Source: Candidatus Thermosaccharophagus yellowstonensis (lineage in GTDB: Bacteria > Armatimonadota > Fervidibacteria > Fervidibacterales > Thermosaccharophagaceae). From it: DNA of 64,000 bases. Made by a program: the position numbers and the translations under genes. Of this stretch, positions 13,334 to 50,124 are shown one piece after another. The stretch covers positions 11,856 to 75,855 of the forward strand of contig JBGOEK010000003.1 in the NCBI GenBank assembly GCA_041537945.1, written 5' to 3'. Below the pieces are notes generated by a model that saw only the letters and a program-made list of their open reading frames with translations, ran no database searches and was not told where the DNA came from. Numbering within the stretch: position 1 is the stretch's first letter; every line of letters starts with the position of its first letter.

Positions 13334-13353
13334 CGAGAGAGGGGGCAACGGAT

Positions 13354-34458: not shown

Positions 34459-34468
34459 TGGAGACAGG

Positions 34469-34756: not shown

Positions 34757-34801
34757 TGGTGTTCACCTCTTTGGGCATATTCTGCCGTGCACAGCTTTCA
34801 A

Positions 34802-34817
34802 TGGCAATAGCGTTGCA
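34802..34817 (+). promoter_or_regulatory. candidate sigma-54 (-24/-12) promoter of the Fdh-like/hydrogenase operon
   Basis: TGGCAATAGCGTTGCA has GG at 34803-34804 and GC at 34815-34816 with exactly 10 nt between them, matching TGGCAC-N5-TTGCA. It lies about 60 nt upstream of ATG 34878 and its TAGGAGGA SD. Confidence 0.5.
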
Positions 34818-34877
34818 TGTGCTGTATGCAGAATGCTTCCATCCACCATGATAATACATCGGGCTTAGGAGGAAGAC

Positions 34878-36803
34878 ATGATGGTCAGCGGGAAGACGAC
34901 TTGTGGTTTTTGTGGTTGCGGTTGTGGTTTGTATCTTCTGCATGAGGATGGTAACGCCATTGGAGTGATACCGAGCGATAAAGACATCGTGAACGAGGGC
35001 AGGCTTTGCATACGCGGCTGGCACATCCATCAACCGTTGCGCAACACCGAAAGGATATTACACCCGCTGGTTAAGGGAGAAAGAGCAAGCTATGAGGACG
35101 CTGTCTCTTTCGTTGCTGATGTGTTGAGGAGGTATCCGCCAGAGAGGGTTGGCATCATAGGCTCTGCGAGTGCCACGAATGAGAGTTCATATGTAGTGGC
35201 GAAGTTTGCGAGGGCTGTCATCCGCACTAACAATGTTGACTTTCCGGGGCGCTCGAGGGTTACGCAAACACTTTTCCAGTTGCTTTCATCTCAAGAGGGC
35301 GCATCGGTGCTTTGCTCATTTGAAGATTTGGCGGAGGCTGATGTTTTGTTTTGCATCGGTATCGGGGAATCGGATCGCTACCCTCAAGTCACAGCTCGCA
35401 TATTCAAAGCGGTCGTAGAAGATGGCAGGCAACTGCTCCTGATTGATACATGGCAATCAGATTTCGCCCCGTATGCCTCTTTGTATCTTTCGCCAAAGCC
35501 TTTCTCTGATGAGTTTCTTCTCAGGGCGTTATCAAAAGCGCTTGACGGAAGCATACCGATGCCTTTCAGTAGTGAGCAGGTGCGCTCCATAACTGGCTTG
35601 AGCGATGAGCAAATAATGGCTGCAGCTGATTTGCTCAGCAGTGGCAGGCGAGTGGTCGCAATCTACGATACAGCATCATTAATCCACATACGCTCGCCTC
35701 ATTGCATGAATGAGCTTCTAAGGCTTTTGAGGGTGCTCAAGGGGATGGGCGCTGAGTGGTGTCGTATCCTGCCGATGCTCGAAAGGTGTAACACAGCCGG
35801 TGCTTTGCGCATGGGCGTAGCGCCAGATCTGCTCCCCGCGTTCAAGTGGGTGACGGATGCGGATGCGGTTCAAAAGACATGCTCAATTTGGGGTGTTGAT
35901 AAGCTACCACGAAACAAGGGCATGAACTTCAACCAAATGCTCATGGCAGCTGAGAGGAAGGAAATCAGCGCTCTCATCATCATCGGCGATGACATACTAA
36001 CCGATTATCCAGACCATGAACTCTTGAAGAGCGCTTTGAGCAACCTTGAACTGCTTGTCATGATAACTGCGTATCACTCACCATTGACCGAGGTAGCACA
36101 TTGCGTTTTCCCGAGAGCCATTTGGGGCGAAGTCGATGGCACATGTGTGAACATGGAAGGAAGGGTGTGCAGGTTGGTGAGCGTTTGCGAGCCGAAGGGT
36201 GATGCGAGGGATGAGTGGCAGGTGTTGTGTGATGTGGCGACGAAGCTTGGATACACGATGAGATACTCAAGCTGTGCCGAAATTGAAGATGAGCTAAAGC
36301 GCCTTGTCCCAGAATACGGTGACATCAGATTGGAGAGAGCCAACGCCAAAACATGCTTGCTTCGTGAGACATCCATAACCATCCCAACATACAGCGCACA
36401 TGGTGAGATAAGCCCACCTGCGCTCCCGAGCACTTCTGAGGAGTTTCCTTTCCTTCTCATAACTGAGCGTTATTACTTGCCATGGCATGCTGATTTGCTT
36501 GCGTTACATTCGTCGACGCTTCAACGGGAGTTCAGGTTGCGCTTCACGCCTCATGTTTTCGTCAACTCGGCTGTGGGTAGCTCCATCGGGTTAAGAGATG
36601 GAATGCCAGCCACCATCACCACACCGCATGGGAGTGCTCGTGTCACATCGATATTCAAGGAGGCGATACCATCTGGCATCGCCATCTTGCCCGAGATGTT
36701 CTTCCCACAGCTTCGGCATGTAATTGGGCGAGAGGGTGTGGATGAGCAAACTGGTGCGCCAATCTATCCTGTGGTTGTGGCGAGGTTGGAGCGAACAAGG
36801 TGA
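34878..36803 (+). CDS. FdhF-like molybdopterin-oxidoreductase-family protein lacking the Sec/Cys-His catalytic pair
   Basis: N-terminal 4Fe-4S motif CGFCGCGCG...C(44). GSASATNESSYVVAKFARAVIRTNNVDFPGRSRVTQT aligns by eye with E. coli FdhF [39 protein letters not shown]. 641 aa. Confidence 0.75.
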   Translation: MMVSGKTTCGFCGCGCGLYLLHEDGNAIGVIPSDKDIVNEGRLCIRGWHIHQPLRNTERILHPLVKGERASYEDAVSFVADVLRRYPPERVGIIGSASATNESSYVVAKFARAVIRTNNVDFPGRSRVTQTLFQLLSSQEGASVLCSFEDLAEADVLFCIGIGESDRYPQVTARIFKAVVEDGRQLLLIDTWQSDFAPYASLYLSPKPFSDEFLLRALSKALDGSIPMPFSSEQVRSITGLSDEQIMAAADLLSSGRRVVAIYDTASLIHIRSPHCMNELLRLLRVLKGMGAEWCRILPMLERCNTAGALRMGVAPDLLPAFKWVTDADAVQKTCSIWGVDKLPRNKGMNFNQMLMAAERKEISALIIIGDDILTDYPDHELLKSALSNLELLVMITAYHSPLTEVAHCVFPRAIWGEVDGTCVNMEGRVCRLVSVCEPKGDARDEWQVLCDVATKLGYTMRYSSCAEIEDELKRLVPEYGDIRLERANAKTCLLRETSITIPTYSAHGEISPPALPSTSEEFPFLLITERYYLPWHADLLALHSSTLQREFRLRFTPHVFVNSAVGSSIGLRDGMPATITTPHGSARVTSIFKEAIPSGIAILPEMFFPQLRHVIGREGVDEQTGAPIYPVVVARLERTR

Positions 36804-36839
36804 GTGAAAAATTCACCTCACTCATGGGGGGCGGGGTTC

Positions 36840-37925
36840 ATGGGCACTGTTGAAGTTGGTAGCAAGCTCACGCTCTCGAAGGGGAGGTTGAACGATTTCC
36901 TTCGTTCGCTTGATGCACCCTTAGCAGCCCCAATACGCCTTGAGCATGGCGAAGTGCATTTCGCTGTCAACCCACCGCTTGAACAAATACTTCGTGATGC
37001 TGAGTATGTGAACAGCACGATATCGCCAGTTGCCTTGCTTTTCCCGCAGACCGAAGTTCTCTTCAACTTCAGGCTCAATGGTAAACCACAACTTGAGTTC
37101 CCACCGCCTCCACAACCGTTAATCATCTTCGGCATACGCTCGTGTGATGTAGCAGCGATGCGCTACCTTGAGATGTTTTTCTCGCGCAGCTTCGTTGATA
37201 CACCGTTCTTTGAGAGGGCGAAAGTGACGACACTCATAAGCATCGCATGCCAACGCCCTGGCAAGAACTGTTTTTGCCCATGTTGTGCTGGAGGTCCATT
37301 CCTTGAGGACGGATACGACATACAACTTGTAGACTTCGGCGAGCTGTTCCTTGTTGAGGTTGGCTCAGAGAAAGGGAAGCAGTTGCTCAGCGGGCGCGAG
37401 GGTTTCTTTGAGCTTGCCTCGGAGGAACTCGTTGAGAGGCGAAATAGGCTATACGAGGAGACGCTACAGAAGTTTGAGATAGCTTCTCACATGGGGACGG
37501 GGGTTCGCAAGCTGACATCAAGGTCTGTCTCTGAGGAACTTTGGAAGATGATGGCTTCAAGGTGCATTGAGTGTGGTGGATGCGCTTTCGTTTGCCCGCT
37601 GTGCACATGCTTTGATGTTGTTGACCATAAGCTACCATCCGAAAATGATGGAGCAGTCTGTGGTTGGCGGGAGCGTTGTTGGGATTGTTGCCAGTTCGCT
37701 GGCTACTCAATGGAGGCTGCAGGCGTCAGCCCACGCCCAGATAAACTGAGCAGGTTCAAGAGGCGTTTCTACCACAAGCTCAGCTACTTCTACATGGAGA
37801 TGGATGGCAGGGTTGGTTGTGTTGGTTGTGGAAGGTGCATTCAAGTTTGCTTTGGCGTGGTTGATATGCCAGCGGTCGTCAACACATTGAGGGAGGAAAA
37901 GGTGTTCGGTGTGAGGTTGAGGTGA
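36840..37925 (+). CDS. 4Fe-4S dicluster protein, sulfhydrogenase beta (HydB)/AsrA-like
   Basis: CIECGGCAFVCPLCTCFD and CVGCGRCIQVCF cluster motifs, plus a GIRSCD region. Size and layout resemble HydB/AsrA. Start could be GTG 36804 or ATG 36840. Confidence 0.7.
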   Translation: MGTVEVGSKLTLSKGRLNDFLRSLDAPLAAPIRLEHGEVHFAVNPPLEQILRDAEYVNSTISPVALLFPQTEVLFNFRLNGKPQLEFPPPPQPLIIFGIRSCDVAAMRYLEMFFSRSFVDTPFFERAKVTTLISIACQRPGKNCFCPCCAGGPFLEDGYDIQLVDFGELFLVEVGSEKGKQLLSGREGFFELASEELVERRNRLYEETLQKFEIASHMGTGVRKLTSRSVSEELWKMMASRCIECGGCAFVCPLCTCFDVVDHKLPSENDGAVCGWRERCWDCCQFAGYSMEAAGVSPRPDKLSRFKRRFYHKLSYFYMEMDGRVGCVGCGRCIQVCFGVVDMPAVVNTLREEKVFGVRLR

Positions 37926-37955
37926 CAAGATTGAATTTCGTTGGGAGGGTTTGGT

Positions 37956-38819
37956 ATGCGTGAGCATCTCTATGAGCCAATGCTTGCGCGAATCGTTGAG
38001 GTCACAGATGAGACGCCAGATGTGAAGACATTCACGCTCCAAATCGAGGACGGTGTCATTGATTATCGACCCGGGCAGTTTGCGGAGGTTTCCGTCTTCG
38101 GGGTTGGTGAAGCGCCGTTTGGCATATCATCAAGCCCGACTTGGACAAAGCGCACCGGTTACATTCAAGTGACGGTGAGGGCTGTAGGTAAGGTAACGAG
38201 GGCTCTACATAGCCTCAAGCAAGGCGACTATGTTGGTGTAAGGGCGCCTCTTGGGAATGGCTTCCCAGTGGAGAGGGCGGAGGGCAAGAGGGTGATAATC
38301 GTTGGTGGCGGGATTGGCTTGCCACCACTGCGCTCATTGCTCAACTACATGCTGGACAACAGGGAGAGGTTCGGGAAGATAACGGTGTTATACGGTGCAC
38401 GCACCCCTGCTGATATGGTTTTCAAGCGTGAACTCGCCGAATGGTCTGCTCGCCCTGACCTTGAATATCTCGACACAGTTGATATTGCTGATGAGGAGTG
38501 GCAGAGGTTAGGAAAGAGGGTTGGGGTTGTGACGACTCTGTTCCCGATACTCGATGAGCAAAGCCCGATTGAACCGCACAATACAATCGCATTCATCTGC
38601 GGTCCTCCGATCATGATCCATTTCGTCATCCTTGAGCTTGAGAAACGGAATGTGCCTCCAGAGAACATCATCTCGACGCTTGAGCGCCACATGAAGTGCG
38701 GAGTCGGTAAGTGCGGGCACTGTGCCATAGGGCACAAGTATGTATGTGTTGATGGACCCGTGTTCTCTTGGGCTGAGATGAAAGAGCTTGAGTGGATGAG
38801 CGCAGAGAAGTCAGTTTGA
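37956..38819 (+). CDS. FAD/NAD(P)-binding oxidoreductase with C-terminal 2Fe-2S, sulfhydrogenase gamma (HydG)/AsrB/PyrK-like
   Basis: RPGQFAEVSVFGVGEAPFGISS flavin motif, IIVGGGIGLPPL nucleotide-binding motif, C-terminal CGVGKCGHCAIGHKYVCVDGPVF. Confidence 0.75.
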   Translation: MREHLYEPMLARIVEVTDETPDVKTFTLQIEDGVIDYRPGQFAEVSVFGVGEAPFGISSSPTWTKRTGYIQVTVRAVGKVTRALHSLKQGDYVGVRAPLGNGFPVERAEGKRVIIVGGGIGLPPLRSLLNYMLDNRERFGKITVLYGARTPADMVFKRELAEWSARPDLEYLDTVDIADEEWQRLGKRVGVVTTLFPILDEQSPIEPHNTIAFICGPPIMIHFVILELEKRNVPPENIISTLERHMKCGVGKCGHCAIGHKYVCVDGPVFSWAEMKELEWMSAEKSV

Positions 38820-38839: not shown

Positions 38840-39352
38840 GTGGTTGATGTAGCGATGAACGAGAAGATAGGGATTGAGAGAATTTGCGATGCGCGGTGGC
38901 GTAAGGTCGCAGTAGTGGGTATAGGGAATGAGATGCGTGGTGATGATGCCGTTGGATGTTATGTGGCGAGGAAGCTTGAAGGCATAAGCGGTGCGCTCGT
39001 CATTGATGCAGGCGATGTCCCGGAAAACTACACGCAGTTGTTGCGAGCTTATGAGCCAGATTGCATATTGCTGATTGACGCAGTTGATGTGGGCGCAAAC
39101 GCTGGGTCAATCGTCATCATGCATCGTGAGGAGCTACCACTATCCTTGTCCGTCTCAACTCATGGTATACCGCTAAGGTTGCTCGCCGATTACCTTCACC
39201 GTGAACTTGGTGCTGATGTGATGCTCATCGGCATTCAAGTTGGGACGACTTCATTTGGTGCAACTATGTGCGATGATGTGAAAGAGTCAGCCGATGTGGT
39301 GGCGGAGTTCCTTACAGCTTACTTGAGCTCTACAGGGTGTTCTGACAAATGA
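38840..39352 (+). CDS. hydrogenase maturation endopeptidase (HycI/HyaD family)
   Basis: VAVVGIGNEMRGDDAVGCYVARKL, LLIDAVD and STHGIPL motifs. Start is GTG 38840 or ATG 38855. Confidence 0.8.
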   Translation: MVDVAMNEKIGIERICDARWRKVAVVGIGNEMRGDDAVGCYVARKLEGISGALVIDAGDVPENYTQLLRAYEPDCILLIDAVDVGANAGSIVIMHREELPLSLSVSTHGIPLRLLADYLHRELGADVMLIGIQVGTTSFGATMCDDVKESADVVAEFLTAYLSSTGCSDK

Positions 39353-40336: not shown

Positions 40337-41869
40337 ATGGTTGATATGGTCACTTGGTGCATCTTGCTGATAGCAGTTCCTGCAATCGGTGGGATAGTTT
40401 GTGCTTTCCTGCCAGACAGGGCTGCGCGCTTCTTTGCCACCGTAGTGTCGTTTGCTACAGCCGTCATAGGCTTATGGCTCATCACCAATTATGGCTCTGA
40501 GGAGAACATAGTTAGCGTTGGTGGGCTTGCATGGATAAGCAAAGTTGCTGGAACGAAAGTTGACCTGTTCGGCTTTCTCATTGATCCGTTGAGCAGTATA
40601 ATGCTTTCGCTGATCGTCGTTATAGGTTTCCTTGTTGTGCTTTACTCAACTGCCTATGTCAGCGCCAACAACAAGGAACATCCAGTAGAGGAGGGAGCTT
40701 CACGCTACTTCTGCTGGATGCTCCTCTTCATTGCGTCAATGGCTGGCGTCGTCACATCTTCGACATTCTTCCAGCTCTTCATCTTTTGGGAATTAACGAC
40801 GCTGTGTTCATGGGCGCTCATCTCGTTTGACTATAACGACCCTGAGGCAGTTCGTGCGGGCTACAAGGCACTTTTGATGACGCATATTGGTGGGCTCTTC
40901 CTCATGACCATGATCGTGTTGTGTTTCGCCTTCACGAAGTCTTTCGGGTTTGACGCCATGAGGAAGCTCACACCGACGATGCAGGTTGCGCTCCTCTCCT
41001 TAGCGTTCATTGGTGCGTGGGCGAAGGCAGCTCAATTCCCATTTTACACTTGGCTTCCCGATGCTATGGTTGCGCCTACCCCTGTCAGTGCATATTTGCA
41101 CGCAGCAGCTATGGTTAAGGCTGGCATATACCTGCCAGCAAGGGTTGTCCTTGCAGCTCGCCCGTTTCTTAAGGCACTGCACCCATCTGCCATCGATACA
41201 GCTGGAATACTCATGGGCACGCTCTCAATCATAACCATCATCATCGGCTGTTACATGTTCTTCTACCAAGATGACTTGAAGCGACTGCTCGCTTTCTCAA
41301 CAATCGTTCACCTTGCTCACATCCTGATGGAATGGGCATGCGGGTCACTCGGGTGCTCAATATGCTATCAGAGTGGGTTGATACACATCATCGCTCACGG
41401 TGTGGGCAAGGGTTTGCTCTTCCTTTCCGTCGGCGCGCTCTCATACTCCACTGGCACAAGGCGCATAAGCCAGCTGAGCGGTGCTGGCTTTAAGATGCCA
41501 CTTGTGGCGGTTAGCTTCCTTATCGGAGCGCTCACCATATCGGGCATACCGCCATTCGCTGGCTTCTGGAGCAAGTTCTACTTCATCTTAGGTGCGATAA
41601 CGCTGGGCAAGTTCGGGATATTGTTTGTCATAGTCGGTCTCATCGATGCCGTCATCAGGTTTGCGTGGTTCATTTATGTTGCGCACAAGGTGTTCGCTGG
41701 TGAGCCATCTGAGATGGTGCGGAGCGCTAAAGGGACTTCGCCAGCGATTAACATAGCTATCGCCATCTTGATCATACTTTGCTTCATCTCAACGCCGTTT
41801 GCGGTGCAGATGTCTGCAACTGCGGTTGGGATCTGCACTGAGGGGACTTGCTCTGTGGTGGCACATTGA
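40337..41869 (+). CDS. antiporter-like membrane subunit (NuoL/HyfD-HyfF type)
   Basis: 510 aa. FIFWELTTLCSWALISF and KAAQFPFYTWLPDAMVAPTPVSAYLHAAAMVKAGIY. Confidence 0.85.
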   Translation: MVDMVTWCILLIAVPAIGGIVCAFLPDRAARFFATVVSFATAVIGLWLITNYGSEENIVSVGGLAWISKVAGTKVDLFGFLIDPLSSIMLSLIVVIGFLVVLYSTAYVSANNKEHPVEEGASRYFCWMLLFIASMAGVVTSSTFFQLFIFWELTTLCSWALISFDYNDPEAVRAGYKALLMTHIGGLFLMTMIVLCFAFTKSFGFDAMRKLTPTMQVALLSLAFIGAWAKAAQFPFYTWLPDAMVAPTPVSAYLHAAAMVKAGIYLPARVVLAARPFLKALHPSAIDTAGILMGTLSIITIIIGCYMFFYQDDLKRLLAFSTIVHLAHILMEWACGSLGCSICYQSGLIHIIAHGVGKGLLFLSVGALSYSTGTRRISQLSGAGFKMPLVAVSFLIGALTISGIPPFAGFWSKFYFILGAITLGKFGILFVIVGLIDAVIRFAWFIYVAHKVFAGEPSEMVRSAKGTSPAINIAIAILIILCFISTPFAVQMSATAVGICTEGTCSVVAH

Positions 41870-41909
41870 AGCCAATTTAAAGCTCGGCTTTTGGGAGGCG
41901 ATAGGTGAG

Positions 41910-43967
41910 ATGCAGATCTCGCAGGAGATGCTTGTGATGATCATCCTCGGAGTTTTTGGCGCTGGTGCTTTCCTTACCGCTGTAACTTCACCGCTTCGTC
42001 GCTTGACAGCGTGGCTTGGGTTCATCTTCGCCTTCTGTGGCTCTTTGCTTTGCCTCGTCGTCGCTACTCGTGCATTTTATGCACCTGCTATCGAGCAAGG
42101 ACATTCTTACCTTCCATTGCCGGTCGTAAATGCGGCGTTCCAAATACAGGTTGATGAGCTTAGCGCTCTCTTCCTCATCATCATCGGCTTGCTCGGCATC
42201 TGCACTTCACTTTACTCTGTTGGCTACATCACACACGACTACTACAAGGAAGAGCACCTTGTCCGCTACTATCCGTTTTTGATGTTCTTCCTCGCTGGCA
42301 TGGTCGGCGTTGTAACCTGCTGGGACATGTTTTACTTCCTCGTCTTCTGGGAAGTGATGACGCTTGCTTCCTATGTGCTCGTCATTTACGAAAAGAGCAA
42401 CCCCATATCGCTTCGTGCCGGCTTGAAGTATTTCGTGATGACGCACATCGGCACTACTGGCATCGTCTGTGGCGTGATTATCGTCTGGCTTTTCTGTCGT
42501 TCGTTTAACTTTGAATCCCTCAAGGTCGGCATGGAAATGCTTTATACGGAACGCCCTTCGTTGCTTCACCTTGTGCTATTGTTGCTTTTTGTTGGCTTCG
42601 CTACGAAGGCTGCACTCTTCCCATTCGGCGACTGGCTCCCTGATGCTCACCCTGCAGCGCCATCCGCTATCAGCTCTTTGCTCTCTGGCGTGATGATAAA
42701 GATGGGTGTCTATGGCATCCTACGCACATTCGTCTGGATGATGCCCTCATCTCACCACCTAAGCACATGGGGTTTTGTTGTAGCGCTGTTTGGCACTGTC
42801 TCGCTTTTCATATGCACTGTAGCTGCTTTAATCCAAAACGATTCAAAACGCATGCTCGCCTACAGCAGTATGGGTCAAATGGGCTATATCTGCTTGGGCA
42901 TAGGAATTGGGATGGGCTTCATGCGCGTCTCGCCGGGTTTAAGCGCGCTCGGCTTCATAGCTGGTTTGTATCACCTGATCAATCATGCGTGTTTCAAAGG
43001 TCTCCTCTTCTTAAACGCTGGCTCAGTTTTGATACGCACTGGCACGCGCAACATGGGCACGCTCGGTGGCTTGTGGCGCTTCATGCCCACAACAGCTTTC
43101 ACAACTCTTATCGCCGCACTCGCGATTTCTGGCGTGCCGCCGATGAACGGGTTTGTGAGCAAGTGGTTGATCTACAATGCTTCCATTATGGGTGGTCTCC
43201 AAGTCCCGATATACCTTGCGTGTTGCATCGCTGCGGTGTTCATCTCCACTGTCACGCTCGCTTATTCTATCAAGCTCATGGGGATATTCATTAGCATGCC
43301 GTCAAAGCTCGTTAGTCAGCTCGAGAAGGAGCTTAGAGAGGTTGACTGGACTATGGTTGTCCCGCAGGTTGTGCTTGCTCTGATATGCATTGCTCTTGGT
43401 CTCTTTCCAAACCTCGTTTTGCCTGTAGTGTATCGTGCAGTGAATGCGTTGCGCCCCGATTTCATGCCGCCGTTTGATTCGCTGTTTGTATGGATGCCTT
43501 TGTCGGTTGGGATAAGCGTTGGCGAGGGAGTCACTGGAGCTTTCTCTCCCCTTGTATACTTGCTTGCGTTCTTGGTTTGTATGCTCATCCCGTTTGCGCT
43601 CTACAAGCTTGCTGGTGCGAAAGTGCGCTACGCATCGCCATGGGCATGTGGGGAGCTCCACAGCAGTGAGGAACTACGCTATCGTGTTGAGAGCTTCTAC
43701 ACGCCCTTCAGGGGTTTCCTTTCGTTCAGGGTGGGTAGGAAGCGCGTGACATCACTTTACCCGACTTTGCCGAAGCCGAGGGCGCCTTGGGTTGCCAAGA
43801 TGCGCATCATCTTTGAAGTTGATAGGCTCTATGAAGCTGTGATTCGTGTGGGCGCGAAGGCTTGCGAATGGTTTAGCACAACGCATGCTGGCATACCACA
43901 GCTTTATGTCCTGTGGATGGCTATCGGCATCCTTTTCGCCATAGCTTTGCTTTACCTTCTTTCGTGA
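41910..43967 (+). CDS. hyfB: hydrogenase-4 component B / HycC-like antiporter subunit with C-terminal extension
   Basis: 685 aa from ATG 41910. FWEVMTLASYVLVIYE and TKAALFPFGDWLPDAHPAAPSAISSLLSGVMIKMGVYGILR. The long C-terminal extension resembles HyfB. The ORF-track start at 41799 overlaps the preceding gene. Confidence 0.85.
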   Translation: MQISQEMLVMIILGVFGAGAFLTAVTSPLRRLTAWLGFIFAFCGSLLCLVVATRAFYAPAIEQGHSYLPLPVVNAAFQIQVDELSALFLIIIGLLGICTSLYSVGYITHDYYKEEHLVRYYPFLMFFLAGMVGVVTCWDMFYFLVFWEVMTLASYVLVIYEKSNPISLRAGLKYFVMTHIGTTGIVCGVIIVWLFCRSFNFESLKVGMEMLYTERPSLLHLVLLLLFVGFATKAALFPFGDWLPDAHPAAPSAISSLLSGVMIKMGVYGILRTFVWMMPSSHHLSTWGFVVALFGTVSLFICTVAALIQNDSKRMLAYSSMGQMGYICLGIGIGMGFMRVSPGLSALGFIAGLYHLINHACFKGLLFLNAGSVLIRTGTRNMGTLGGLWRFMPTTAFTTLIAALAISGVPPMNGFVSKWLIYNASIMGGLQVPIYLACCIAAVFISTVTLAYSIKLMGIFISMPSKLVSQLEKELREVDWTMVVPQVVLALICIALGLFPNLVLPVVYRAVNALRPDFMPPFDSLFVWMPLSVGISVGEGVTGAFSPLVYLLAFLVCMLIPFALYKLAGAKVRYASPWACGELHSSEELRYRVESFYTPFRGFLSFRVGRKRVTSLYPTLPKPRAPWVAKMRIIFEVDRLYEAVIRVGAKACEWFSTTHAGIPQLYVLWMAIGILFAIALLYLLS

Positions 43968-43995: not shown

Positions 43996-45789
43996 ATGAC
44001 TTCTCGTGAGTTAATGCGACGCCTGCGCGAAGGGTTGGGCGAAAAAGTGATTGAGTGCTGGGAACCGAGGGATGGAAGGGTGTTCGTTAAGGTCTCACCG
44101 AGCGACATCGTTACAGCGTGCGACTATGCATTCAACACACTTAAAGCGCGCTACATGACCACATGCGCAACTGATGACAGATGGCGAAATGGCAAGTTCA
44201 CCGTAACGCATTTCTTCTCGCTCGATGCGGACAAGCTTTTCCTCTCCGTGCGTTGCGAAGTTGACCCTGAAAACCCAGTGTTGCCGTCGATCACCCCGCT
44301 AATACCCGGTGCTGAATGGGCTGAGAGGGAGCAACAGGATTTGGTTGGTGTTAAGTTTGATGGTCATCCAGACCCGAGGAGGCTCGTTCTACCCGATGAC
44401 TTCCCGCCAGACTTGCATCCGCTACGAAAGGATTACCCATACAACTATCGCCCTGAGCCTGATATGCGTGGCAAGGTGCCGATGAAAGAGCCACCCGAGG
44501 GAGCAACTGTTGTGGCAGTTGGTCCGTTCTTCCCAGTGCTTGAGGAACCAGCCTACTTCAGGCTTTTCGTCGAGGGTGAGACAATAGTTGGTTGCGACTA
44601 CCGTGGCTTTTATAACCATCGTGGCATTGAGAAACTCGGTGACAGCAAGCTTACATTCAACCAAATTGTTTTCCTCGCCGAAAGGATATGAGGGATATGA
44701 GGCTTCATACACAGCACGGTGTGCTGTGAGGCAACAGAAAACGCTCTCGGAATAAGAGCACCAAGGAGGGCAAGGCTCATAAGGAGCATAATGCTCGAGA
44801 TTGAGCGCATACATAGCCACCTGCTCTGGCTCGGTATAGCTGGGCACATAATCGGGTTTGACACAGTGCTCATGCAAGCTTGGCGGATAAGAGAGCCAGT
44901 CATGTGGCTCGCCGAGTATATCACGGGCAATAGGAAAACTTACGGAATGAACATCGTGGGCGGCGTTAGGCGAGATATAACGAGGGAGAAGCACGAGCGC
45001 ATCCTTGAAGTGATGAAGCGAGTTGAGGAAGAAACTGTTGCAGTCATAAGAGCAGTTGAGGGTGATACGATGCTTCATGTGAGGCTTCGCGGGGTCGGAT
45101 ACCTTTCACCAGAGGATGCGAGAGCAATGTGCGTTGTCGGTCCAACTGCAAGGGGCTCTAACATCGCGATTGATGCGCGTGTTGATCATCCGTATGCTGG
45201 CTACGATGAGCTTGTCCCAGAGAAGAAGGTGCATGATGAGTGCGACATCTGGGCAAGGACACTCGTCAGGCTTGAGGAGACAATCGAATCAGTCAGGCTG
45301 GTTAGGGAGGGCATAAAAGCTCTTCAAGATATGCCCGAGGGCGAGATAGTGCTCAACATAACTGAGGAAGTCCCAGAGGGGCTTGAGGGCATATCCGTTG
45401 TTGAGGCGCCGAGGGGAGAATGCATCCACTATGTCATAACGAGCGCTGAGAACAGACCACACAGGTGGCGTGTGCGAGCACCATCTTACATGAACATACA
45501 CGCATTGCCAGTTATGTTCAAGAACAAGGATGGAGGCATACCATCGGAGCCGTTCAGCAGGGCAAACATCGCTGACATACCGATAATCATAGGCAGTGTT
45601 GACCCTTGCTTCTCGTGCACTGAGAGGGTTGAAGTGGTTGATGTGAAAAAGAAGGAAGTGCGCTTCTACACGAGGAACGAGTTGATCGAGCTCTGCAGGC
45701 TCAAGGCTCAGGAGCTGTTCAATAGGCGCTCAATAACAGTTGGCGAGCTTGGTGGCTCTGCTAAACAACCAATGGAGAGGCAACATTGA
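43996..45789 (+). CDS. hyfG: group-4 [NiFe]-hydrogenase large subunit (NuoC-NuoD fusion, HycE/HyfG-like) with two in-frame TGA codons at the N-terminal Ni-ligand Cys positions
   Basis: One reading frame of 597 sense positions, interrupted only by TGA at 44689-44691 and 44698-44700. The ORF track splits it into 43996-44691 and 44719-45789, which are in the same frame. NuoC part: PGAEWAEREQQDLVGVKFDGHPDPRRLVLPDD. NuoD/HycE part: GPFFPVLEEPAYFRLFVEGE, YNHRGIEKL, LAERI-*-GI-*-GFIHS, LEIERIHSHLLWLG, VEAPRGECIHY. C-terminal motif is DPCFSCTER. Confidence 0.85.
44710..44728 (+). promoter_or_regulatory. SECIS-like RNA hairpin immediately 3' of the two TGA codons
   Basis: CACAGCAC-GGT-GTGCTGTG forms a perfect 8-bp stem (44710-44717 pairing with 44721-44728) with a GGU apical loop. 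It begins 9 nt after the second TGA and 18 nt after the first. Confidence 0.55.
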
Positions 45790-45832
45790 TGCCTACGAAA
45801 AAAATTGCACTCTATTAGAGGGTGATGCAGTG

Positions 45833-46744
45833 ATGGAGAGGTTAGGCTATGCGGTGTTGAATGTGGTCGTTGTGCTTTTCTTTGCGCCGTTGTGTGAGGG
45901 CTTCGTGCGCAAGTATATCCGTGCCAACTTGGCTCACTCAAGGAGAGGTCCACTCGTTGGCATCTGGCAACCGTTCTATGACTTGCTAAAGCTCTTTGCG
46001 AAGGAAGACATACGCGTTGGTGGAGCACTCCAAACGGTCATGCCGTATATAGCCTTTAGTTCGATGTTGGTTGCCTCCCTTTTCCTGCCGCTTTGTGGCT
46101 ATGCACCGCTTGATGGATTTGGGGATCTGATCGTCTTCGTATACACTGTTAGTCTGTTTGCGATATCGCTTGCTGTTTTGGCGCTTGACACTGGCTCTCC
46201 ATATTCAAGCATTGGTGCGCTGAGGGAGATAATGCTCATGACGCTTGTTGAGCTTATATTCATCACATCCCTCATTTGCGGGGCTGTCTGTGCACACACT
46301 CTCAGGCTTTCTGGAATAATCCTTTGGTATCGCATGCGTTTCTTCTCGCTCCCGATGCTCATCGCTGCGGGTGTTGTCTTCATGGCGATGCTGGCTCAAT
46401 TTGGGCGTCTCCCATTTGACATACCTGAGGCAGAGCAGGAGATAATAGGCGGTCCATTCATGGAAGTTTCAGGTCCGAGGCTCGCCTTGCTGAAGTGGGC
46501 AGTCTATATGAGGCAGTTTATCAGCGCAAGCCTCTTTGCCACTGTCTTCATACCTTGGTGCTTAACTGGGGTGTTTGTCATTGACCTAATCATCACGCTC
46601 GTCAAGGTGCTCATCACTTTCGTTCTTGTGACGCTCGTTGAGGTGCTCTCGCCAAGGCTTAGGGTTGATCAGGCTCTCAACTTCTACCTTGGTGTCTTTC
46701 TTACTTCGGCAATCGCTATCGCCATTGCTTATGTTGCTCCATAA
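45833..46744 (+). CDS. hyfC: HycD/HyfC (NuoH-like) membrane subunit
   Basis: FFAPLCEGFVRKYIRANLAHSRRGPLVGIWQPFYDLLKLFAKED and the LPFDIPEAEQEIIGGPFMEVSG motif. 303 aa from ATG 45833. Confidence 0.85.
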   Translation: MERLGYAVLNVVVVLFFAPLCEGFVRKYIRANLAHSRRGPLVGIWQPFYDLLKLFAKEDIRVGGALQTVMPYIAFSSMLVASLFLPLCGYAPLDGFGDLIVFVYTVSLFAISLAVLALDTGSPYSSIGALREIMLMTLVELIFITSLICGAVCAHTLRLSGIILWYRMRFFSLPMLIAAGVVFMAMLAQFGRLPFDIPEAEQEIIGGPFMEVSGPRLALLKWAVYMRQFISASLFATVFIPWCLTGVFVIDLIITLVKVLITFVLVTLVEVLSPRLRVDQALNFYLGVFLTSAIAIAIAYVAP

Positions 46745-46782
46745 GGCTTAAAGCGATTCAACTTTCATAGGGGGGCAACGAC

Positions 46783-47295
46783 ATGATAGGTAGCAAGTTG
46801 AAGGAGCTGATGATTGCGCTTCGTGGTGGCGCTCCAAGACCGCTCGTCGTGACATTACCGTATCCGCTTGGACCGGGCGCCGAAGTGCCAGAAGGCTTCA
46901 GAGGAAAGGTTGAAGTTGATGTTTCAAAGTGCGTCGGGTGTGGTGGCTGTGCGAATGTTTGCCCATCAAGGTGCATACTCATTGAGGACACATCACAACT
47001 ATGGCGCAAGATGACCATAATGCGTGAGAGGTGCACTTACTGCGCACGCTGTCAGGAGGTTTGCCAAGAGAAAGCTATAACACTGACATGTGAGTTTGAG
47101 CTTGCCACAGATGACCCAGCCGACCTCACCGACACATGGGAAGTCTTCATGGCTACATGCTCACGATGTGGGAGATGCTTCAAACCTAAGACAGTCTTGG
47201 ATAAGATGATGGAAGTGGGTTTCAAGCCACCGATGGAGAAGCGTTACGGAGCATATGCTATGTCGCCAGCCAAAGAGGCACTTGAGGACTGTTGA
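46783..47295 (+). CDS. hyfH: 4Fe-4S ferredoxin subunit (HycF/HyfH/NuoI-like)
   Basis: CVGCGGCANVCP and CTYCARCQEVC motifs, plus an extra CSRCGRC. Confidence 0.8.
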   Translation: MIGSKLKELMIALRGGAPRPLVVTLPYPLGPGAEVPEGFRGKVEVDVSKCVGCGGCANVCPSRCILIEDTSQLWRKMTIMRERCTYCARCQEVCQEKAITLTCEFELATDDPADLTDTWEVFMATCSRCGRCFKPKTVLDKMMEVGFKPPMEKRYGAYAMSPAKEALEDC

Positions 47296-47309
47296 GAGGT
47301 GAGCATACC

Positions 47310-47990
47310 ATGCCTGCCATCCAAGGCATAGATGTGCTTGCATTGCTCATGATAGCACATCTTCTTGCATCCCTTGTCGCATCCGAGCTTCGCAACCTGC
47401 GCCTCAGCGCTTGGGCACTCGTTGTCCAAGCATTCTTCTTGGCTTGCATAATAGCGTCATACGGTTTCGTTTGGAACAACCCAACGCTCTTCATCTGGGC
47501 TTCTGTTACAGTGCTGACGAAGGTTATCATCATCCCCGCCCTCTTGCTCCATCACATAAGAGTTACAGGGCTCACTATGGAGATACGCCCTCTGATAGGG
47601 TTGAGGGTTTCGGTTCTGATGAGCGTCTTTTTAGTTGTGGCGCTCTACTGGCTCTTCCGCACTTACATCTACTTCATCGCCCCAACCATAGCAGCAATGA
47701 TGGAGCCAGCCCGCTCAAACTTGGCTATGGCATTCTGCATCTTCTCACTCGGCATGTATGTGCTTATCACGCGCAGGGATGTTGTTAAAGTGGTAGTCGG
47801 GTTCATCCTGCTTGAAAATGGTGCTCATCTGGCTCTCATCACACTCGCACCGACACTCCCAGCGACGACAAAGCTCGGCATATGGACGAATGTTATCATC
47901 GCTGCGTGGTTGCTTATCAAGCTCGCTGAAGGAATTTACAAAGCGCTTGGTGTTGTCGATACTTTGACTCTATCAGAGTTGAAGCGCTGA
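47310..47990 (+). CDS. hyfE: hydrogenase-4 membrane subunit E
   Basis: LFIWASVTVLTKVIIIPALL and GFILLENGAHLALI align by eye with E. coli HyfE LLIWSASAFITKVLLVP and YCLMENGSHLVLA. 226 aa. Confidence 0.8.
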   Translation: MPAIQGIDVLALLMIAHLLASLVASELRNLRLSAWALVVQAFFLACIIASYGFVWNNPTLFIWASVTVLTKVIIIPALLLHHIRVTGLTMEIRPLIGLRVSVLMSVFLVVALYWLFRTYIYFIAPTIAAMMEPARSNLAMAFCIFSLGMYVLITRRDVVKVVVGFILLENGAHLALITLAPTLPATTKLGIWTNVIIAAWLLIKLAEGIYKALGVVDTLTLSELKR

Positions 47991-48048
47991 GGTGGTTTGA
48001 ACAGCACTGCCATAGTGAAGTTGGTTCAAACCAAGCGAGGTGTGAGAG

Positions 48049-49572
48049 ATGGTGGTCGAATCGTTGCTCCCAATACTTGTCTTTGTCATACCGACGGCGT
48101 GTGGCATCATAAGCCTTTCGCTAAGGCGAATAAACTCAATCGTTCATGGGACGATAGCTGTTGCTGGGCTTCTCGGGACGCTTTGCGTTGCGATACTCAT
48201 AACCACGGAAGTCCTGCGGGGGAATGTGCTGACTGCATTCAGCAACACGGTCTATGCTGATGGTCTGAGTGCTTTGATGGAACTGCTCGGCTGTGGTATG
48301 GGCATACTCGTTGCCATATATTCGCTACGCTACATACCAGTTCATGTGGCTCATCGCTCCGATGCACCCCAAAGGTTAAGCACATACTATGGGCTGTTGC
48401 TCCTCTTCCTCGGGATGATGAACTGGACATGCGTGACAAACAACATAGTGTGGCTCTATGTGACGCTTGAGGCAACTACACTTGCAACTGCCTTCTTGGT
48501 CACATTCTACTGGGACAGGCGTTCGCTTGAGGCTGGTTACAAATACCTCATGCTCGTAACCGTCGGTGTCATCTTCTCGCTGTTTGGGCTTGTGCTGATC
48601 TATGCGGGCGCAATTGAACTGCCAGAGATGAAGGGTCGTAATGTGCTCCTCATAACCGAGCTTAGCAGGGTCGGTCCGAAGATATCATACAGCGTTGTTT
48701 TGTTGGCTAACGCTCTTATACTCGCAGGGTTTGGCGCAAAGGCTGGGCTTGTCCCGTTCCACGCTTGGCTTCCCGATGCACACGCAGAAGCACCAGCTCC
48801 AATTAGCGCATTGCTCTCTGGCATCGTGATAAAGGTTGGCGCATACGCGATGGCAAGGACTGTCACCATATTCGCACCACAATACCCTGCGGTTGTCGTC
48901 TTCGTAGCCATCATGGCATCGCTCAGCATGGTCACTGGTATACTCATGGCGCTTGTTCAGGATGACATAAAGCGGATGCTCGCATACTCATCCGTGAGCC
49001 AGATAGGCTATGTTGTTGAGGGGCTCGGGTTTGGAACATACCTTGGCATATACGGTGCTCTGTTCCACTTGATGAACCACACCATCGTTAAGGCGTTGCT
49101 CTTCCTAACCGCCGGTGCTGTAGCGCATGTCACTGGGACGCGCAGGATGAGTGAGCTTGGTGGGCTTGCGCGCCACATGCCTGTGGTTGCAGTTTGCTTC
49201 TTCATTGGCGCCATCGCCATCGGTGGGTTGCCACCGTTCAACATGTTCATGAGCAAGTTCACGCTCTTCATGGCTGCAGCAGATGTGGGGCTCTTGTGGG
49301 CTGCGGTGATAGCCGTATTCACAGGCTTGTTAACTGTTGCTTGCTTCTTGAGGGCTGCAGCGAGGATATTCTGGGGCGCACCATGCAAGGTTATCCAACC
49401 TGCTGCGGTCGCAGCAAACGGTGGTGAAGTGCGTCTCCCAATAACCATGCTCATACCCATGGTCATCCTCGCCATCTTGACCATCGCATTGGGCATCTAC
49501 CCGGGGCTTGTTCATCCGCTACTTGACAGTGCAACTATGTGCATCCTGAAGATACTTCATGTAGGGGTGTGA
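48049..49572 (+). CDS. antiporter-like membrane subunit (HyfD/HyfF, NuoM/N type)
   Basis: 507 aa. LYVTLEATTLATAFLV and GAKAGLVPFHAWLPDAHAEAPAPISALLSGIVIKVGAYAMAR. Confidence 0.85.
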   Translation: MVVESLLPILVFVIPTACGIISLSLRRINSIVHGTIAVAGLLGTLCVAILITTEVLRGNVLTAFSNTVYADGLSALMELLGCGMGILVAIYSLRYIPVHVAHRSDAPQRLSTYYGLLLLFLGMMNWTCVTNNIVWLYVTLEATTLATAFLVTFYWDRRSLEAGYKYLMLVTVGVIFSLFGLVLIYAGAIELPEMKGRNVLLITELSRVGPKISYSVVLLANALILAGFGAKAGLVPFHAWLPDAHAEAPAPISALLSGIVIKVGAYAMARTVTIFAPQYPAVVVFVAIMASLSMVTGILMALVQDDIKRMLAYSSVSQIGYVVEGLGFGTYLGIYGALFHLMNHTIVKALLFLTAGAVAHVTGTRRMSELGGLARHMPVVAVCFFIGAIAIGGLPPFNMFMSKFTLFMAAADVGLLWAAVIAVFTGLLTVACFLRAAARIFWGAPCKVIQPAAVAANGGEVRLPITMLIPMVILAILTIALGIYPGLVHPLLDSATMCILKILHVGV

Positions 49573-49614: not shown

Positions 49615-50124
49615 ATGGTTGGATGGTTCAGGAGGCTTTGTGAGAAGGCGTTTCCGAAGGCGTTGTGGGTCTTCCACGCAAACACGGGCGCATGCAACGG
49701 ATGTGACATTGAGGTCATAAATGTGCTCACGCCGTATTATGATGCTGAGCGTTTTGGCATAAGGCTTGTTGGCTCCCCAAGGCATGCCGATGTCATCATC
49801 GTTACAGGTCCTGTTACAAGGCAATCTGCACCAGTCCTTGAACGCCTCATTGATTCAGTTCCGTCGCCAAAGCTCATCCTTGCAGTTGGCTCTTGCCCAA
49901 CTGGTGGCAACATCTGGTTTGACTCATACGCAACTTGTGGTGGTCTATCAAGCGTCATCAAGGGCAAGGACATACCGGTGGTCTATGTTCCCGGATGCCC
50001 ACCTCGCCCAGAGGCAATACTTTACGGTGTGGCTGTAGCGCTCGGTCTGGTCAAAAAGAAAGTGGCAAGCAAGCACATGAGGCAGGAACTGCTCCCACCG
50101 AGACAGGAAGCAAAAGCACATTAG
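49615..50124 (+). CDS. hyfI: [NiFe]-hydrogenase small subunit (HycG/HyfI, NuoB-like)
   Basis: GACNGCDIEV, GSPRHADVIIVTGPVT, GSCPTGGNIW and VPGCPPRPEAI supply the four Cys of the proximal 4Fe-4S cluster. Confidence 0.88.
   Translation: MVGWFRRLCEKAFPKALWVFHANTGACNGCDIEVINVLTPYYDAERFGIRLVGSPRHADVIIVTGPVTRQSAPVLERLIDSVPSPKLILAVGSCPTGGNIWFDSYATCGGLSSVIKGKDIPVVYVPGCPPRPEAILYGVAVALGLVKKKVASKHMRQELLPPRQEAKAH

What the first reader, a model, noticed from the sequence alone, without database searches (positions are those of the whole stretch)
44689..44700. Two in-frame TGA codons replace both N-terminal Ni-ligand cysteines of a group-4 [NiFe]-hydrogenase large subunit
Read in the 43996 frame, the sequence is ...NQIVFLAERI-TGA-G-I-TGA-GFIHSTVCCEATENALGIRAPRRA...

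The invariant L1 motif of [NiFe] large subunits, including HycE and HyfG, is E-R-x-C-G-x-C-x-x-x-H. Here both Cys positions are TGA (44689-44691 and 44698-44700).

Several observations argue that this is position-specific recoding rather than a change of genetic code or gene decay:
- The two ORF-track pieces (43996-44691 and 44719-45789) are in the same frame, and the 1.8-kb gene has no other stop.
- All other catalytic motifs are intact, including C-terminal DPCFSCTER, which is encoded with TGC.
- Ordinary TGC and TGT codons occur eight and nine codons later (VCC).
- TGA also terminates this gene (45787-45789) and its neighbours.
- Two random nonsense mutations landing exactly on the two metal-ligand Cys codons is implausible.

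Known [NiFeSe] hydrogenases carry a single Sec in the C-terminal DPUxxC motif, which is a terminal Ni ligand, and they belong to groups 1 and 3. I know of no described enzyme with Sec at the N-terminal pair (one terminal ligand, one Ni-Fe bridging), nor any group-4 membrane-bound selenoenzyme. A U-x-x-U pair at a metal site would be unusual selenoprotein chemistry.
Basis: partly seen in the sequence, partly recalled or inferred. Interest (0 to 1): 0.92.

Follow-up and report, generated by a model that had tools for sequence, protein, structure and literature searches.

The report
Double-UGA selenocysteine-type group 4 hydrogenase gene
A hot-spring bacterium's membrane-bound hydrogenase gene has UGA "stop" codons in place of two of its four nickel-binding cysteine codons, followed by a conserved RNA hairpin that signals selenocysteine insertion; the feature is real and functional, but this class of enzyme was described from sequence data in a September 2026 paper.

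Summary
In the 597-codon gene at 43996-45789 (+), TGA at 44689-91 and 44698-700 aligns with the two N-terminal Ni-ligand cysteines of E. coli HycE (C241, C244) and P. furiosus MbhL. The gene is neither an artefact nor a pseudogene.

- Independent assemblies (NCBI, JGI, ENA, Logan) show the same stops.
- Three Ca. Thermosaccharophagus-type orthologues keep both TGAs although synonymous sites are near saturation.
- dN/dS is 0.02-0.06 on both sides of the TGAs.
- TGA is the usual stop codon (30 of 43 genes).

A 7-8 bp hairpin (44710-44728) with G at loop position 2 starts 9 nt after the second TGA. It occurs in 19/19 TGA-type relatives from several phyla and 0/61 Cys-type relatives. This holds with GC3 matching and with identical peptides, and one pair shows a compensatory change. 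That is a bacterial SECIS.

Its novelty claim is not: Takano et al. (Front Microbiol, Sept 2026, PMC13582414) describe UXXU-type group 4b [NiFeSe] hydrogenases, including Armatimonadota with this operon type. They also report tRNA^ReC-like tRNAs (UGA→Cys) in all five Armatimonadota genomes, so Sec versus Cys is unresolved. No experimental evidence exists.

The parts
43996..45789 (+). Catalytic large subunit of a group 4 (4b-type) membrane-bound [NiFe] hydrogenase, a fused NuoC-like and NuoD/HycE-like protein. It has 597 codons when both internal UGAs are read through.
   Evidence: PF00329, PF00346, PF00374; HycE 7z0s_E E=5e-119; MbhL; full-length homologues about 64% identical. dN/dS 0.02-0.06 on both sides of the UGAs.
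44689..44691 (+). UGA-1, at the first Cys of the L1 motif (HycE C241 column). This is the terminal Ni ligand.
   Evidence: TGA in L001, L002, L003, L005 and L085. One near-identical contig (L084) has TGT here.
44698..44700 (+). UGA-2, at the second Cys of the L1 motif (HycE C244 column). This is the Ni-Fe bridging ligand.
   Evidence: TGA in every close orthologue, including L084.
44710..44728 (+). SECIS-type apical hairpin CACAGCA(C)-GGU-(G)UGCUGUG, with a 7-8 bp stem and G at loop position 2 (the third base of Thr codon ACG). The stem starts 9 nt after UGA-2 and 18 nt after UGA-1. The 5-nt loop begins 16 and 25 nt after the two UGAs.
   Evidence: z=-3.0; 19/19 TGA-type vs 0/61 Cys-type, p=9e-19; 95% paired, U-A↔C-G compensatory pair; GC3-matched 18/18 vs 0/34; same peptide 11/11 vs 0/25.
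45601..45627 (+). Intact C-terminal L2 motif DPCFSCTER with ordinary TGC Cys codons, followed by a C-terminal extension of about 53 residues. By analogy with HycE, that extension would be removed by the HycI-type protease.
   Evidence: aligned to HycE DPCYSCTDR.
34878..36803 (+). Fdh-like molybdopterin subunit that lacks the catalytic Cys/Sec-His pair (GRSRV where T. kivui HDCR FdhF has ARLCH). It ends at an ordinary TGA stop.
   Evidence: Matches the cluster type described.
36804..37925 (+). SHI-β/AsrA-like Fe-S subunit (Fer4_22). The probable start is the ATG at 36840.
37941..38819 (+). SHI-γ/AsrB-like FAD/NAD(P)-binding Fe-S subunit.
   Evidence: PF00175, PF10418, PF00970.
38840..39352 (+). 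HycI-type hydrogenase maturation endopeptidase.
   Evidence: PF01750.
40337..43967 (+). Two antiporter-like (HyfB/NuoL-type) membrane subunits. The ORFs are 40337-41869 and 41799-43967.
   Evidence: PF00361, PF00662.
45740..49572 (+). HycD/NuoH-like, HycF-like 2x[4Fe-4S], HyfE-like and HyfF/antiporter-like subunits.
   Evidence: PF00146, PF00037, PF00420, PF00361.
49615..50124 (+). Hydrogenase small subunit (NuoB/HycG-like).
   Evidence: PF01058.

Best explanation
The gene encodes a functional catalytic subunit of a group 4b energy-converting hydrogenase in a Ca. Thermosaccharophagus-like bacterium (class Fervidibacteria, Armatimonadota; hot springs). The codons for the two N-terminal Ni ligands are UGA. 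One mRNA hairpin directly downstream (44710-44728) acts as a bacterial SECIS. Inferred mechanism: SelB·GTP·aminoacyl-tRNA binds the hairpin and delivers its tRNA first to UGA-1 (stem 18 nt downstream) and, three codons later, to UGA-2 (stem 9 nt downstream, close to the canonical spacing). The ribosome therefore makes the full 597-residue precursor instead of stopping at residue 231. The most likely product carries selenocysteine at one or both positions (U-G-I-U), giving a Ni site with selenolate in the bridging position and probably the terminal N-terminal position. After Ni-Fe insertion and HycI cleavage, the subunit would work in a formate-hydrogenlyase-like membrane complex whose Fdh-like subunit has lost its catalytic Cys/Sec and which carries SHI-β/γ-like NAD(P)H modules. 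Shown here: the UGAs sit on the Cys columns; the hairpin is specific to UGA-type genes; purifying selection acts on both sides; TGA is otherwise a stop. Inferred: SelB dependence, one SECIS serving both UGAs, and the identity of the inserted residue. My estimates: recoding of some kind about 0.93; Sec at one or more positions about 0.7; Sec at both about 0.4.
For: The UGAs sit exactly on HycE C241/C244. Both TGAs are kept in four Thermosaccharophagus-type lineages with dS 0.5 to >1.7 and dN/dS 0.02-0.06 upstream and downstream. The peptide between and after the UGAs (G-I, GFIHST) follows the family consensus. The hairpin with G at loop position 2 is present in 19/19 UGA-type sequences from several phyla and absent from 61/61 Cys-type sequences. 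This holds with GC3 matching (18/18 vs 0/34) and an identical HSTCYC peptide (11/11 vs 0/25), and AGT/ACG/TGT codons are retained even at GC3 > 0.8. There is one compensatory U-A↔C-G exchange, and slid controls pair only 9-57%. The fold has z=-3. TGA is the main stop and there are no other in-frame TGAs. HycI, the small subunit, the membrane subunits and the L2 motif are all intact. Literature: Takano et al. reach the same reading for 47 group 4 sequences. They report canonical selC in the 5 Armatimonadota UXXU genomes, selABCD in about 90% of Sec-type genomes, and the same G at the third base of Thr ACG. UGA-type homologues in genomes without tRNA^ReC (4/6 Desulfobacterota UXXU genomes; about 98% of CXXU/UXXC genomes) use the same positions and hairpin, which argues for Sec there. 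Engineered Sec at each of the four Ni-ligand positions of E. coli Hyd-1 gave enzymes that could be characterised by electrochemistry.
Against: I could not show any Sec machinery for this genome. The window has no tRNA, Rfam hit or sel gene, and none lies near any of 80 related loci. tRNA^ReC-like tRNAs occur in 5/5 Armatimonadota UXXU genomes and are enriched in UXXU genomes generally, so Cys insertion is a live alternative. UGA-1 lies 18 nt from the stem, longer than the roughly 11-nt E. coli optimum (my own knowledge), so SelB may decode it inefficiently. A near-identical contig has TGT at position 1, which shows that Cys is tolerated there. Hairpin covariation rests on a single evolutionary event. 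No proteomic, 75Se or activity data exist.
Confidence: 0.7

Rival explanations
1. SECIS/SelB-dependent recoding occurs, but both UGAs are read as cysteine by a tRNA^ReC (selC* tRNA^Cys). The mature enzyme would then be a chemically ordinary [NiFe] hydrogenase, and the UGAs would be a translational quirk or regulatory device.
For: tRNA^ReC-like tRNAs are reported in 5/5 Armatimonadota UXXU genomes, and in about 56% of UXXU genomes against about 2.3% of other Sec-type genomes. This system decodes UGA as Cys with a downstream SECIS. A natural TGT variant at position 1 exists in a near-identical strain. Takano et al. state this limitation themselves.
Against: If UGA meant Cys, TGA plus a SECIS would offer no advantage over TGC/TGT and would cost translation efficiency. 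Yet both TGAs and the hairpin persist at near-saturated synonymous divergence and across phyla. Canonical selC is also present in those genomes. Homologous UGA-type genes in genomes without tRNA^ReC use the same positions and hairpin.
Confidence: 0.2
2. The gene is a pseudogene, or a gene split into two polypeptides (a 231-aa NuoC-like piece and a 356-aa piece starting at GTG 44719), with termination at the first TGA.
For: Gene callers in every database annotate it as two ORFs. ORF prediction finds a GTG at 44719.
Against: dN/dS is equally low on both sides. The nine codons between UGA-1 and GTG 44719 (G-I, UGA-2, then GFIHST) keep the family consensus at the protein level. The split products would lack the whole L1 motif, while L2, HycI and all partner subunits are intact. 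Exactly the two ligand codons are hit, with no other lesion, in at least 5 lineages and in nine other UGA-type orthologues checked from other phyla. GTG 44719 lies inside the hairpin, and I see no Shine-Dalgarno-like sequence upstream of it in the sequence.
Confidence: 0.03
3. The TGAs are a sequencing or assembly error, or the organism uses a reassigned genetic code in which TGA is a sense codon.
For: None beyond the bare presence of in-frame TGAs.
Against: The same TGAs are found in MAGs and contigs from NCBI, JGI, ENA and Logan, from different springs and continents. TGA terminates 30 of 43 genes. Coding density is 93% under code 11, and only 2 in-frame TGAs occur against 334 TGG and 331 TGY codons. 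The TGA at 36801 is a verified ordinary stop.
Confidence: 0.01

Closest known systems
UXXU-type Group 4b [NiFeSe] hydrogenases (Takano, Inoue, Aono, Ochi, Mihara, Front Microbiol 2026, PMC13582414)
   Same: Both L1 Cys codons are UGA. The SECIS hairpin lies directly downstream, with the conserved G at the third base of a Thr ACG codon. The cluster is FHL-like, with an Fdh-like subunit lacking Cys/Sec plus SHI-β/γ homologues. The phylum is Armatimonadota and hot-spring sources are included.
   Different: Nothing essential. The supplementary tables are not held, so I could not confirm that this exact sequence (N-fragment identical to NCBI MFA4043660.1) is among their 47. Additions here: dN/dS on both sides of the UGAs, GC3-matched and same-peptide controls for the hairpin, a compensatory pair that forces a Tyr→Cys change, and a CXXU variant within the same lineage.
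Classical [NiFeSe] hydrogenases of groups 1a, 3a and 3c (e.g. Desulfomicrobium baculatum, D. vulgaris Hys, Methanococcus Vhu/Fru)
   Same: Sec replaces a Ni-ligand Cys of the large subunit. In bacteria it is inserted at UGA by SelB and a SECIS.
   Different: Those enzymes have a single Sec in the C-terminal motif (a terminal ligand cis to the substrate site). Here there are two UGAs in the N-terminal motif, one terminal and one bridging, and the C-terminal motif is all Cys. Those enzymes are soluble or periplasmic rather than membrane-bound and complex-I-like.
E. coli formate hydrogenlyase Hyd-3 large subunit HycE (PDB 7Z0S/7Z0T)
   Same: Fused NuoC/NuoD architecture, L1 and L2 motifs, HycI processing, and HycD/F/G-like partners (E=5e-119).
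   Different: HycE has Cys at all four ligand positions, and in E. coli the selenoprotein of the complex is FdhH. Here the reverse holds: the hydrogenase carries the UGAs, and the Fdh-like subunit has neither Sec nor Cys.
tRNA^ReC / selC* tRNA^Cys recoding system (Mukai 2017; Vargas-Rodriguez 2018, as summarised in PMC7609411 and PMC13582414)
   Same: UGA followed by a SECIS, decoded via a SelB-type factor. Reported to co-occur with UXXU hydrogenases in Armatimonadota.
   Different: It inserts Cys, not Sec. Its presence in this particular genome was not testable here.

Membership tests
Group 4 [NiFe] hydrogenase large subunit | N-terminal L1 motif R-x-C-G-x-C-x-x-x-H that supplies two Ni ligands | tested here: met
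   ERI-UGA-GI-UGA-GFIH aligns column for column with HycE RVCGICGFAH and MbhL RMCGICSFSH. The two Cys columns are UGA.
Group 4 [NiFe] hydrogenase large subunit | C-terminal L2 motif D-P-C-x-x-C-x-x-R with a cleavable extension, plus a HycI-type protease | tested here: met
   DPCFSCTER at 45601-45627, followed by about 53 residues. HycI (PF01750) lies in the operon.
Group 4 [NiFe] hydrogenase large subunit | Complex-I-like context: NuoB-like small subunit, NuoH-like, NuoI-like and antiporter-like membrane subunits | tested here: met
   PF01058, PF00146, PF00037 and PF00361 (three copies) in one + strand operon.
Subgroup 4b (HydDB) | Phylogenetic placement with 4b references | not tested
   No HydDB or reference tree was available. 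Nou et al. assign a group 4b enzyme to Thermosaccharophagaceae, and Takano et al. place the Armatimonadota UXXU sequences in 4b.
Bacterial selenoprotein gene | In-frame UGA at a position where homologues have Cys | tested here: met
   61 of 80 related loci have TGC/TGT at both columns and 19 have TGA at one or both.
Bacterial selenoprotein gene | SECIS stem-loop immediately 3' of the UGA, with G in the first two apical-loop positions | tested here: met
   7-8 bp stem with loop CGGUG. The loop begins 16 nt after UGA-2 and 25 nt after UGA-1. 19/19 vs 0/61, with controls and a compensatory pair.
Bacterial selenoprotein gene | Genome encodes selA, selB, selD and tRNA-Sec (selC) | not testable with these tools
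   None in the 64-kb window or in the flanks of 80 loci, and whole genomes cannot be scanned here. Takano et al. report canonical selC in 5/5 Armatimonadota UXXU genomes and selABCD (allowing one missing gene) in about 90% of Sec-type genomes.
Bacterial selenoprotein gene | Selenium actually incorporated at the UGA positions | not testable with these tools
   This needs 75Se labelling, mass spectrometry or EXAFS. It is confounded by tRNA^ReC.
Classical [NiFeSe] hydrogenase (groups 1a/3) | Sec in the C-terminal DP(U)xxC motif | tested here: not met
   The C-terminal motif is DPCFSCTER, with TGC at both Cys.

The most novel reading that the evidence does not exclude
The two UGAs are not equivalent. 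UGA-2, at near-canonical spacing from the SECIS, would be read as Sec by tRNA^Sec. UGA-1, 18 nt from the stem, would be read wholly or partly as Cys by the co-occurring tRNA^ReC, or the choice at either site would shift with selenium supply. One gene would then yield [NiFe], [NiFeSe] and [NiFeSe2] forms of an energy-converting hydrogenase. At the other extreme, both are Sec, giving the first natural Ni centre with two selenolate ligands, made from a single SECIS serving two UGAs three codons apart.
Probability: 0.3. Interest if true: 0.8.

Novelty: already known. Interest (0 to 1): 0.45.

Why it matters
If the UGAs are read as Sec, this is a membrane-bound, energy-converting hydrogenase with selenium in ligand positions never seen in a characterised enzyme: the bridging position and the N-terminal terminal position. 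In all studied [NiFeSe] enzymes the Se sits in the C-terminal motif, where it confers O2 tolerance and high H2 production. It would also show that one bacterial SECIS can serve two UGAs three codons apart. The co-occurrence of tRNA^Sec and tRNA^ReC would make it a natural test case for competition between Sec and Cys decoding. All of this is now in the literature as an in-silico prediction, so what remains valuable is experimental. This lineage (hot-spring Thermosaccharophagus, with many metagenomes available and a cultivated relative in the same class, though that relative's homologue is Cys-type) is a reasonable place to look for the peptide.

Tried and rejected
- **Junction at 36801-36803:** the Fdh-like ORF and the next ORF share a frame across one TGA, which looked like a possible further Sec site. 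It is an ordinary stop: the protein has a complete C-terminus and the next gene has its own in-frame ATG at 36840. The other same-frame TGA junctions (17305, 31804, 54296) lie between ORFs annotated as separate genes.
- **Sec machinery in the window:** ARAGORN and Rfam found nothing, and Pfam annotation of 40 of the window's ORFs found no SelA, SelB or SelD.
- **Sec machinery near relatives:** there is no tRNA-Sec in the flanks of 18 TGA-type loci. tblastn with E. coli SelA, SelB and SelD against all fetched loci gave no hit. I ran no further search on E. coli baits, because the top 120 hits would all be enterobacterial.
- **Second helix around UGA-1:** the helix predicted is only 72% paired across TGA-type sequences, has no compensatory change, and two of its pairs are mostly broken. 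I rejected it as a conserved element.
- **Population survey:** a metagenome DNA-pattern scan returned only two contigs, both TGA/TGA.
- **Literature gaps:** supplements of Takano 2026 and Nou 2024 are not held, and Vargas-Rodriguez 2018 is not held. One search had a malformed term.
- **GC-content bias as the cause of the hairpin's codon choice:** rejected by the GC3-matched and same-peptide controls.
Full report
**1. The observation**

Translating window 43996-45789 (+) gives a single 597-codon frame with exactly two internal stops. Both are TGA, at 44689-44691 and 44698-44700 (…NQIVFLAERI*GI*GFIHSTVCCEATENALGIRAP…). The frame terminates with TGA at 45787-45789.

Pfam finds Complex1_30kDa, Complex1_49kDa and NiFeSe_Hases domains. 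The best solved-structure match is E. coli HycE (7z0s_E, E = 5e-119), followed by P. furiosus MbhL. In both printed alignments the two stop positions fall exactly on the L1 cysteines: HycE DRVCGICGFAHST and MbhL AERMCGICSFSHN. The C-terminal DPCFSCTER motif (45601-45627) is intact and uses TGC.

**2. Context**

The gene sits in a 15-kb operon on the + strand:
- an Fdh-like molybdopterin protein (34878-36803)
- an AsrA/SHI-β-like Fe-S protein (36804-37925)
- an AsrB/SHI-γ-like FAD/NAD-binding protein (37941-38819)
- a HycI protease (38840-39352)
- a WD40 protein (39349-40320)
- two antiporter-like subunits (40337-43967)
- the large subunit (43996-45789)
- HycD-, HycF-, HyfE- and HyfF-like subunits (45740-49572)
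- the small subunit (49615-50124)

The Fdh-like protein has G-R-S-R-V where T. kivui HDCR FdhF has A-R-L-C-H. It therefore lacks the Mo-ligating Cys/Sec and the adjacent His.

The organism is a Candidatus Thermosaccharophagus-like member of the Fervidibacteria (Armatimonadota). The N-terminal fragment is identical to NCBI MFA4043660.1. The nearest species representatives are Ca. T. gerlachensis (95%), Ca. T. tengchongensis (89%) and MAG SKYB128 (89%). Nou et al. 2024 noted that this anaerobic family gained a group 4b hydrogenase and a group 1a [NiFeSe] hydrogenase.

**3. Artefact, changed genetic code or pseudogene?**

*Artefact.* The 231-aa and 356-aa fragments that gene callers produce recur in clusters of 19 and 35 sequences from NCBI, JGI/IMG, ENA and Logan. 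Of the 15 N-terminal fragments I retrieved, 14 end at …AERI. Loci L001, L002, L003, L005 and L085 all read TGA/TGA.

*Genetic code.* TGA ends 30 of 43 window genes. Coding density is about 93% under code 11. The only in-frame TGAs are these two, against 331 TGC/TGT and 334 TGG codons. A same-frame TGA junction at 36801 proved to be an ordinary stop.

*Pseudogene.* In four lineages the gene has exactly these two internal stops and no other lesion. Pairwise dN/dS is 0.02-0.06 upstream and 0.02-0.05 downstream of the TGAs, while dS is 0.5 to >1.7. The downstream two-thirds is therefore translated and under strong constraint. The residues between and just after the TGAs (G-I; GFIHST) follow the family consensus.

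**4. The recoding signal**

Immediately after the motif the mRNA forms CACAGCA(C)-GGU-(G)UGCUGUG (44710-44728). This is a perfect 7-8 bp stem, and the 81-nt fold has z = -3.0. I extracted this region from 80 related loci found in species-representative genomes.

Nineteen of those loci carry TGA at one or both Cys columns:
- **UxxU:** four Armatimonadota, plus MAGs labelled Desulfobacteraceae or delta-proteobacterial, JAPLJL01-type and a related unclassified MAG, Acidobacteriota and Dehalococcoidaceae
- **CxxU:** MAGs labelled Calditrichota and Cytophagia, plus one unclassified bacterium
- **UxxC:** one locus, L009

All 19 have at least 6 contiguous base pairs at this position with G at loop position 2 (the third base of Thr ACG). 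None of the 61 Cys-type loci does (Fisher p = 9e-19).

This is not a GC-content or peptide effect. With GC3-matched Cys-type genes the counts are 18/18 against 0/34. Among genes encoding the identical HSTCYC peptide they are 11/11 against 0/25. The TGA-type genes keep AGT/ACG/TGT even when their GC3 exceeds 0.8.

In a formal count the helix is 95% paired, against 9-57% for slid controls. One pair switches from U-A to C-G in the window's lineage. That switch changes Tyr to Cys in the protein (STCYC → STVCC), so RNA structure has shaped the protein sequence here. It is a single evolutionary event, so covariation support is modest. The main support comes from the association with TGA and the suppression of synonymous change.

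A further helix around UGA-1 predicted is not conserved.

The spacing is as follows. The stem starts 9 nt after UGA-2 and 18 nt after UGA-1. The 5-nt loop begins 16 and 25 nt after the two UGAs respectively.

**5. Mechanism**

The best-supported explanation is SECIS- and SelB-dependent recoding of both UGAs, directed by this single hairpin, to produce the full-length large subunit.

What is shown: the position of the UGAs, the specificity and conservation of the hairpin, selection on the downstream coding sequence, and normal use of TGA as a stop.

What is inferred: the involvement of SelB, the use of one SECIS for two UGAs three codons apart, and the residue inserted.

I could not test for Sec machinery in this genome. 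Nothing relevant lies in the window or near any related locus, and whole genomes cannot be scanned with the tools given.

**6. Comparison with what is known**

[quoted passage not shown] They report:
- 47 group 4 sequences from nine phyla, including Armatimonadota
- Sec only in the N-terminal motif (27 CXXU, 4 UXXC, 16 UXXU)
- group 4b clusters with Fdh-like proteins lacking Cys/Sec plus SHI-β/γ homologues, which is the operon seen here
- SECIS hairpins whose conserved G is the third base of a Thr ACG codon, which is the hairpin seen here
- selABCD in about 90% of Sec-type genomes

They state explicitly that one or both UGAs may be read as Cys in such genomes, and that a single SECIS may serve both UGAs. 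They also cite earlier notes of N-terminal CXXU in a few group 1 and 3 sequences.

It is known only in silico: no Se incorporation, peptide or activity has been shown.

**7. Sec or Cys?**

*For Sec.* Canonical selC and sel genes are reported for these genomes. The costly TGA-plus-SECIS arrangement is maintained at high synonymous divergence and across phyla, which is hard to explain if the product were simply Cys. Homologous UGA-type genes occur in genomes without tRNA^ReC.

*For Cys, at least in part.* tRNA^ReC-like tRNAs are enriched specifically in UXXU genomes. UGA-1 has a long spacing from the stem. A near-identical contig (L084) has TGT at position 1, differing by that single base in 111 nt.

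My estimates are: recoding of some kind 0.93; Sec at one or more positions about 0.7; Sec at both about 0.4; Cys only about 0.2.

**8. Verdict**

This is a real, functional, conserved double-UGA recoding site in a group 4b hydrogenase. I score interest as moderate (0.45). A specialist who has read the 2026 paper would not be surprised, but the prediction remains untested, and the Sec/Cys question and the one-SECIS/two-UGA question are directly testable.

Noticed in passing
L084 (JGI 3300042965, contig Ga0453286_014462), positions about 1739-1849; corresponds to window 44650-44760: A near-identical strain has TGT (Cys) at the first L1 column and TGA at the second. It differs from the window by that one base in 111 nt, making it a CxxU variant inside the UxxU lineage. 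It could be a true polymorphism or a consensus error, since it rests on a single 3.8-kb contig.
   Followed up: partly
L009 (MGQB01000001.1, Deltaproteobacteria bacterium RBG_13_43_22), first Cys column at 10682: TGA at the first column and TGT at the second (UxxC) in a gene about 59% identical to the window's group-4b-type large subunit. The gene is otherwise intact and has the same hairpin. Takano et al. list UXXC only in group 4e, so this may be an unlisted motif type for 4b. It would also show that UGA-1 can be served alone by the hairpin 18 nt downstream.
   Followed up: partly
L023 and L025 (MAGs labelled uncultured Dehalococcoidaceae), first Cys columns at 3787 and 6312: Both are UxxU-type, whereas the Chloroflexota 4b sequences named in the text of Takano et al. 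are CXXU-type. These may be additional UXXU members, since the paper surveyed NCBI genomes and these are binchicken co-assembly MAGs.
   Followed up: no
window 44713-44725 (codons AGC ACG GTG TGC): The compensatory U-A→C-G change in the SECIS stem of the Thermosaccharophagus lineage converts the otherwise common Tyr (UAC) to Cys (UGC), so STCYC becomes STVCC. Here RNA-structure maintenance appears to have altered the protein sequence next to the active-site motif.
   Followed up: partly
window 34878-36803: The Fdh-like molybdopterin subunit has Arg-Val in place of the catalytic Cys/Sec-His pair (GRSRV against ARLCH of T. kivui HDCR FdhF). It is unlikely to oxidise formate in the usual way, and its substrate is unknown. 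Nou et al. recorded these MAGs as 'lacking FdhAB'.
   Followed up: partly
window 39349-40320: A 323-aa WD40 β-propeller protein is encoded inside the hydrogenase operon, with its start overlapping the end of hycI. This is an unusual component for an FHL-type cluster, and its role is unknown.
   Followed up: no
window 8176-11466, 13330-15603 and 21076-23457 (-): Three large ORFs (1096, 757 and 793 aa) have no Pfam match. The first two lie among CarboxypepD_reg/PEGA-domain genes and may be part of a cell-surface gene cluster.
   Followed up: no
window 32962-34868: A histidine kinase (HisKA and HATPase_c domains) and a 124-aa ORF with no Pfam hit lie directly upstream of the hydrogenase operon. 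They may regulate it.
   Followed up: no
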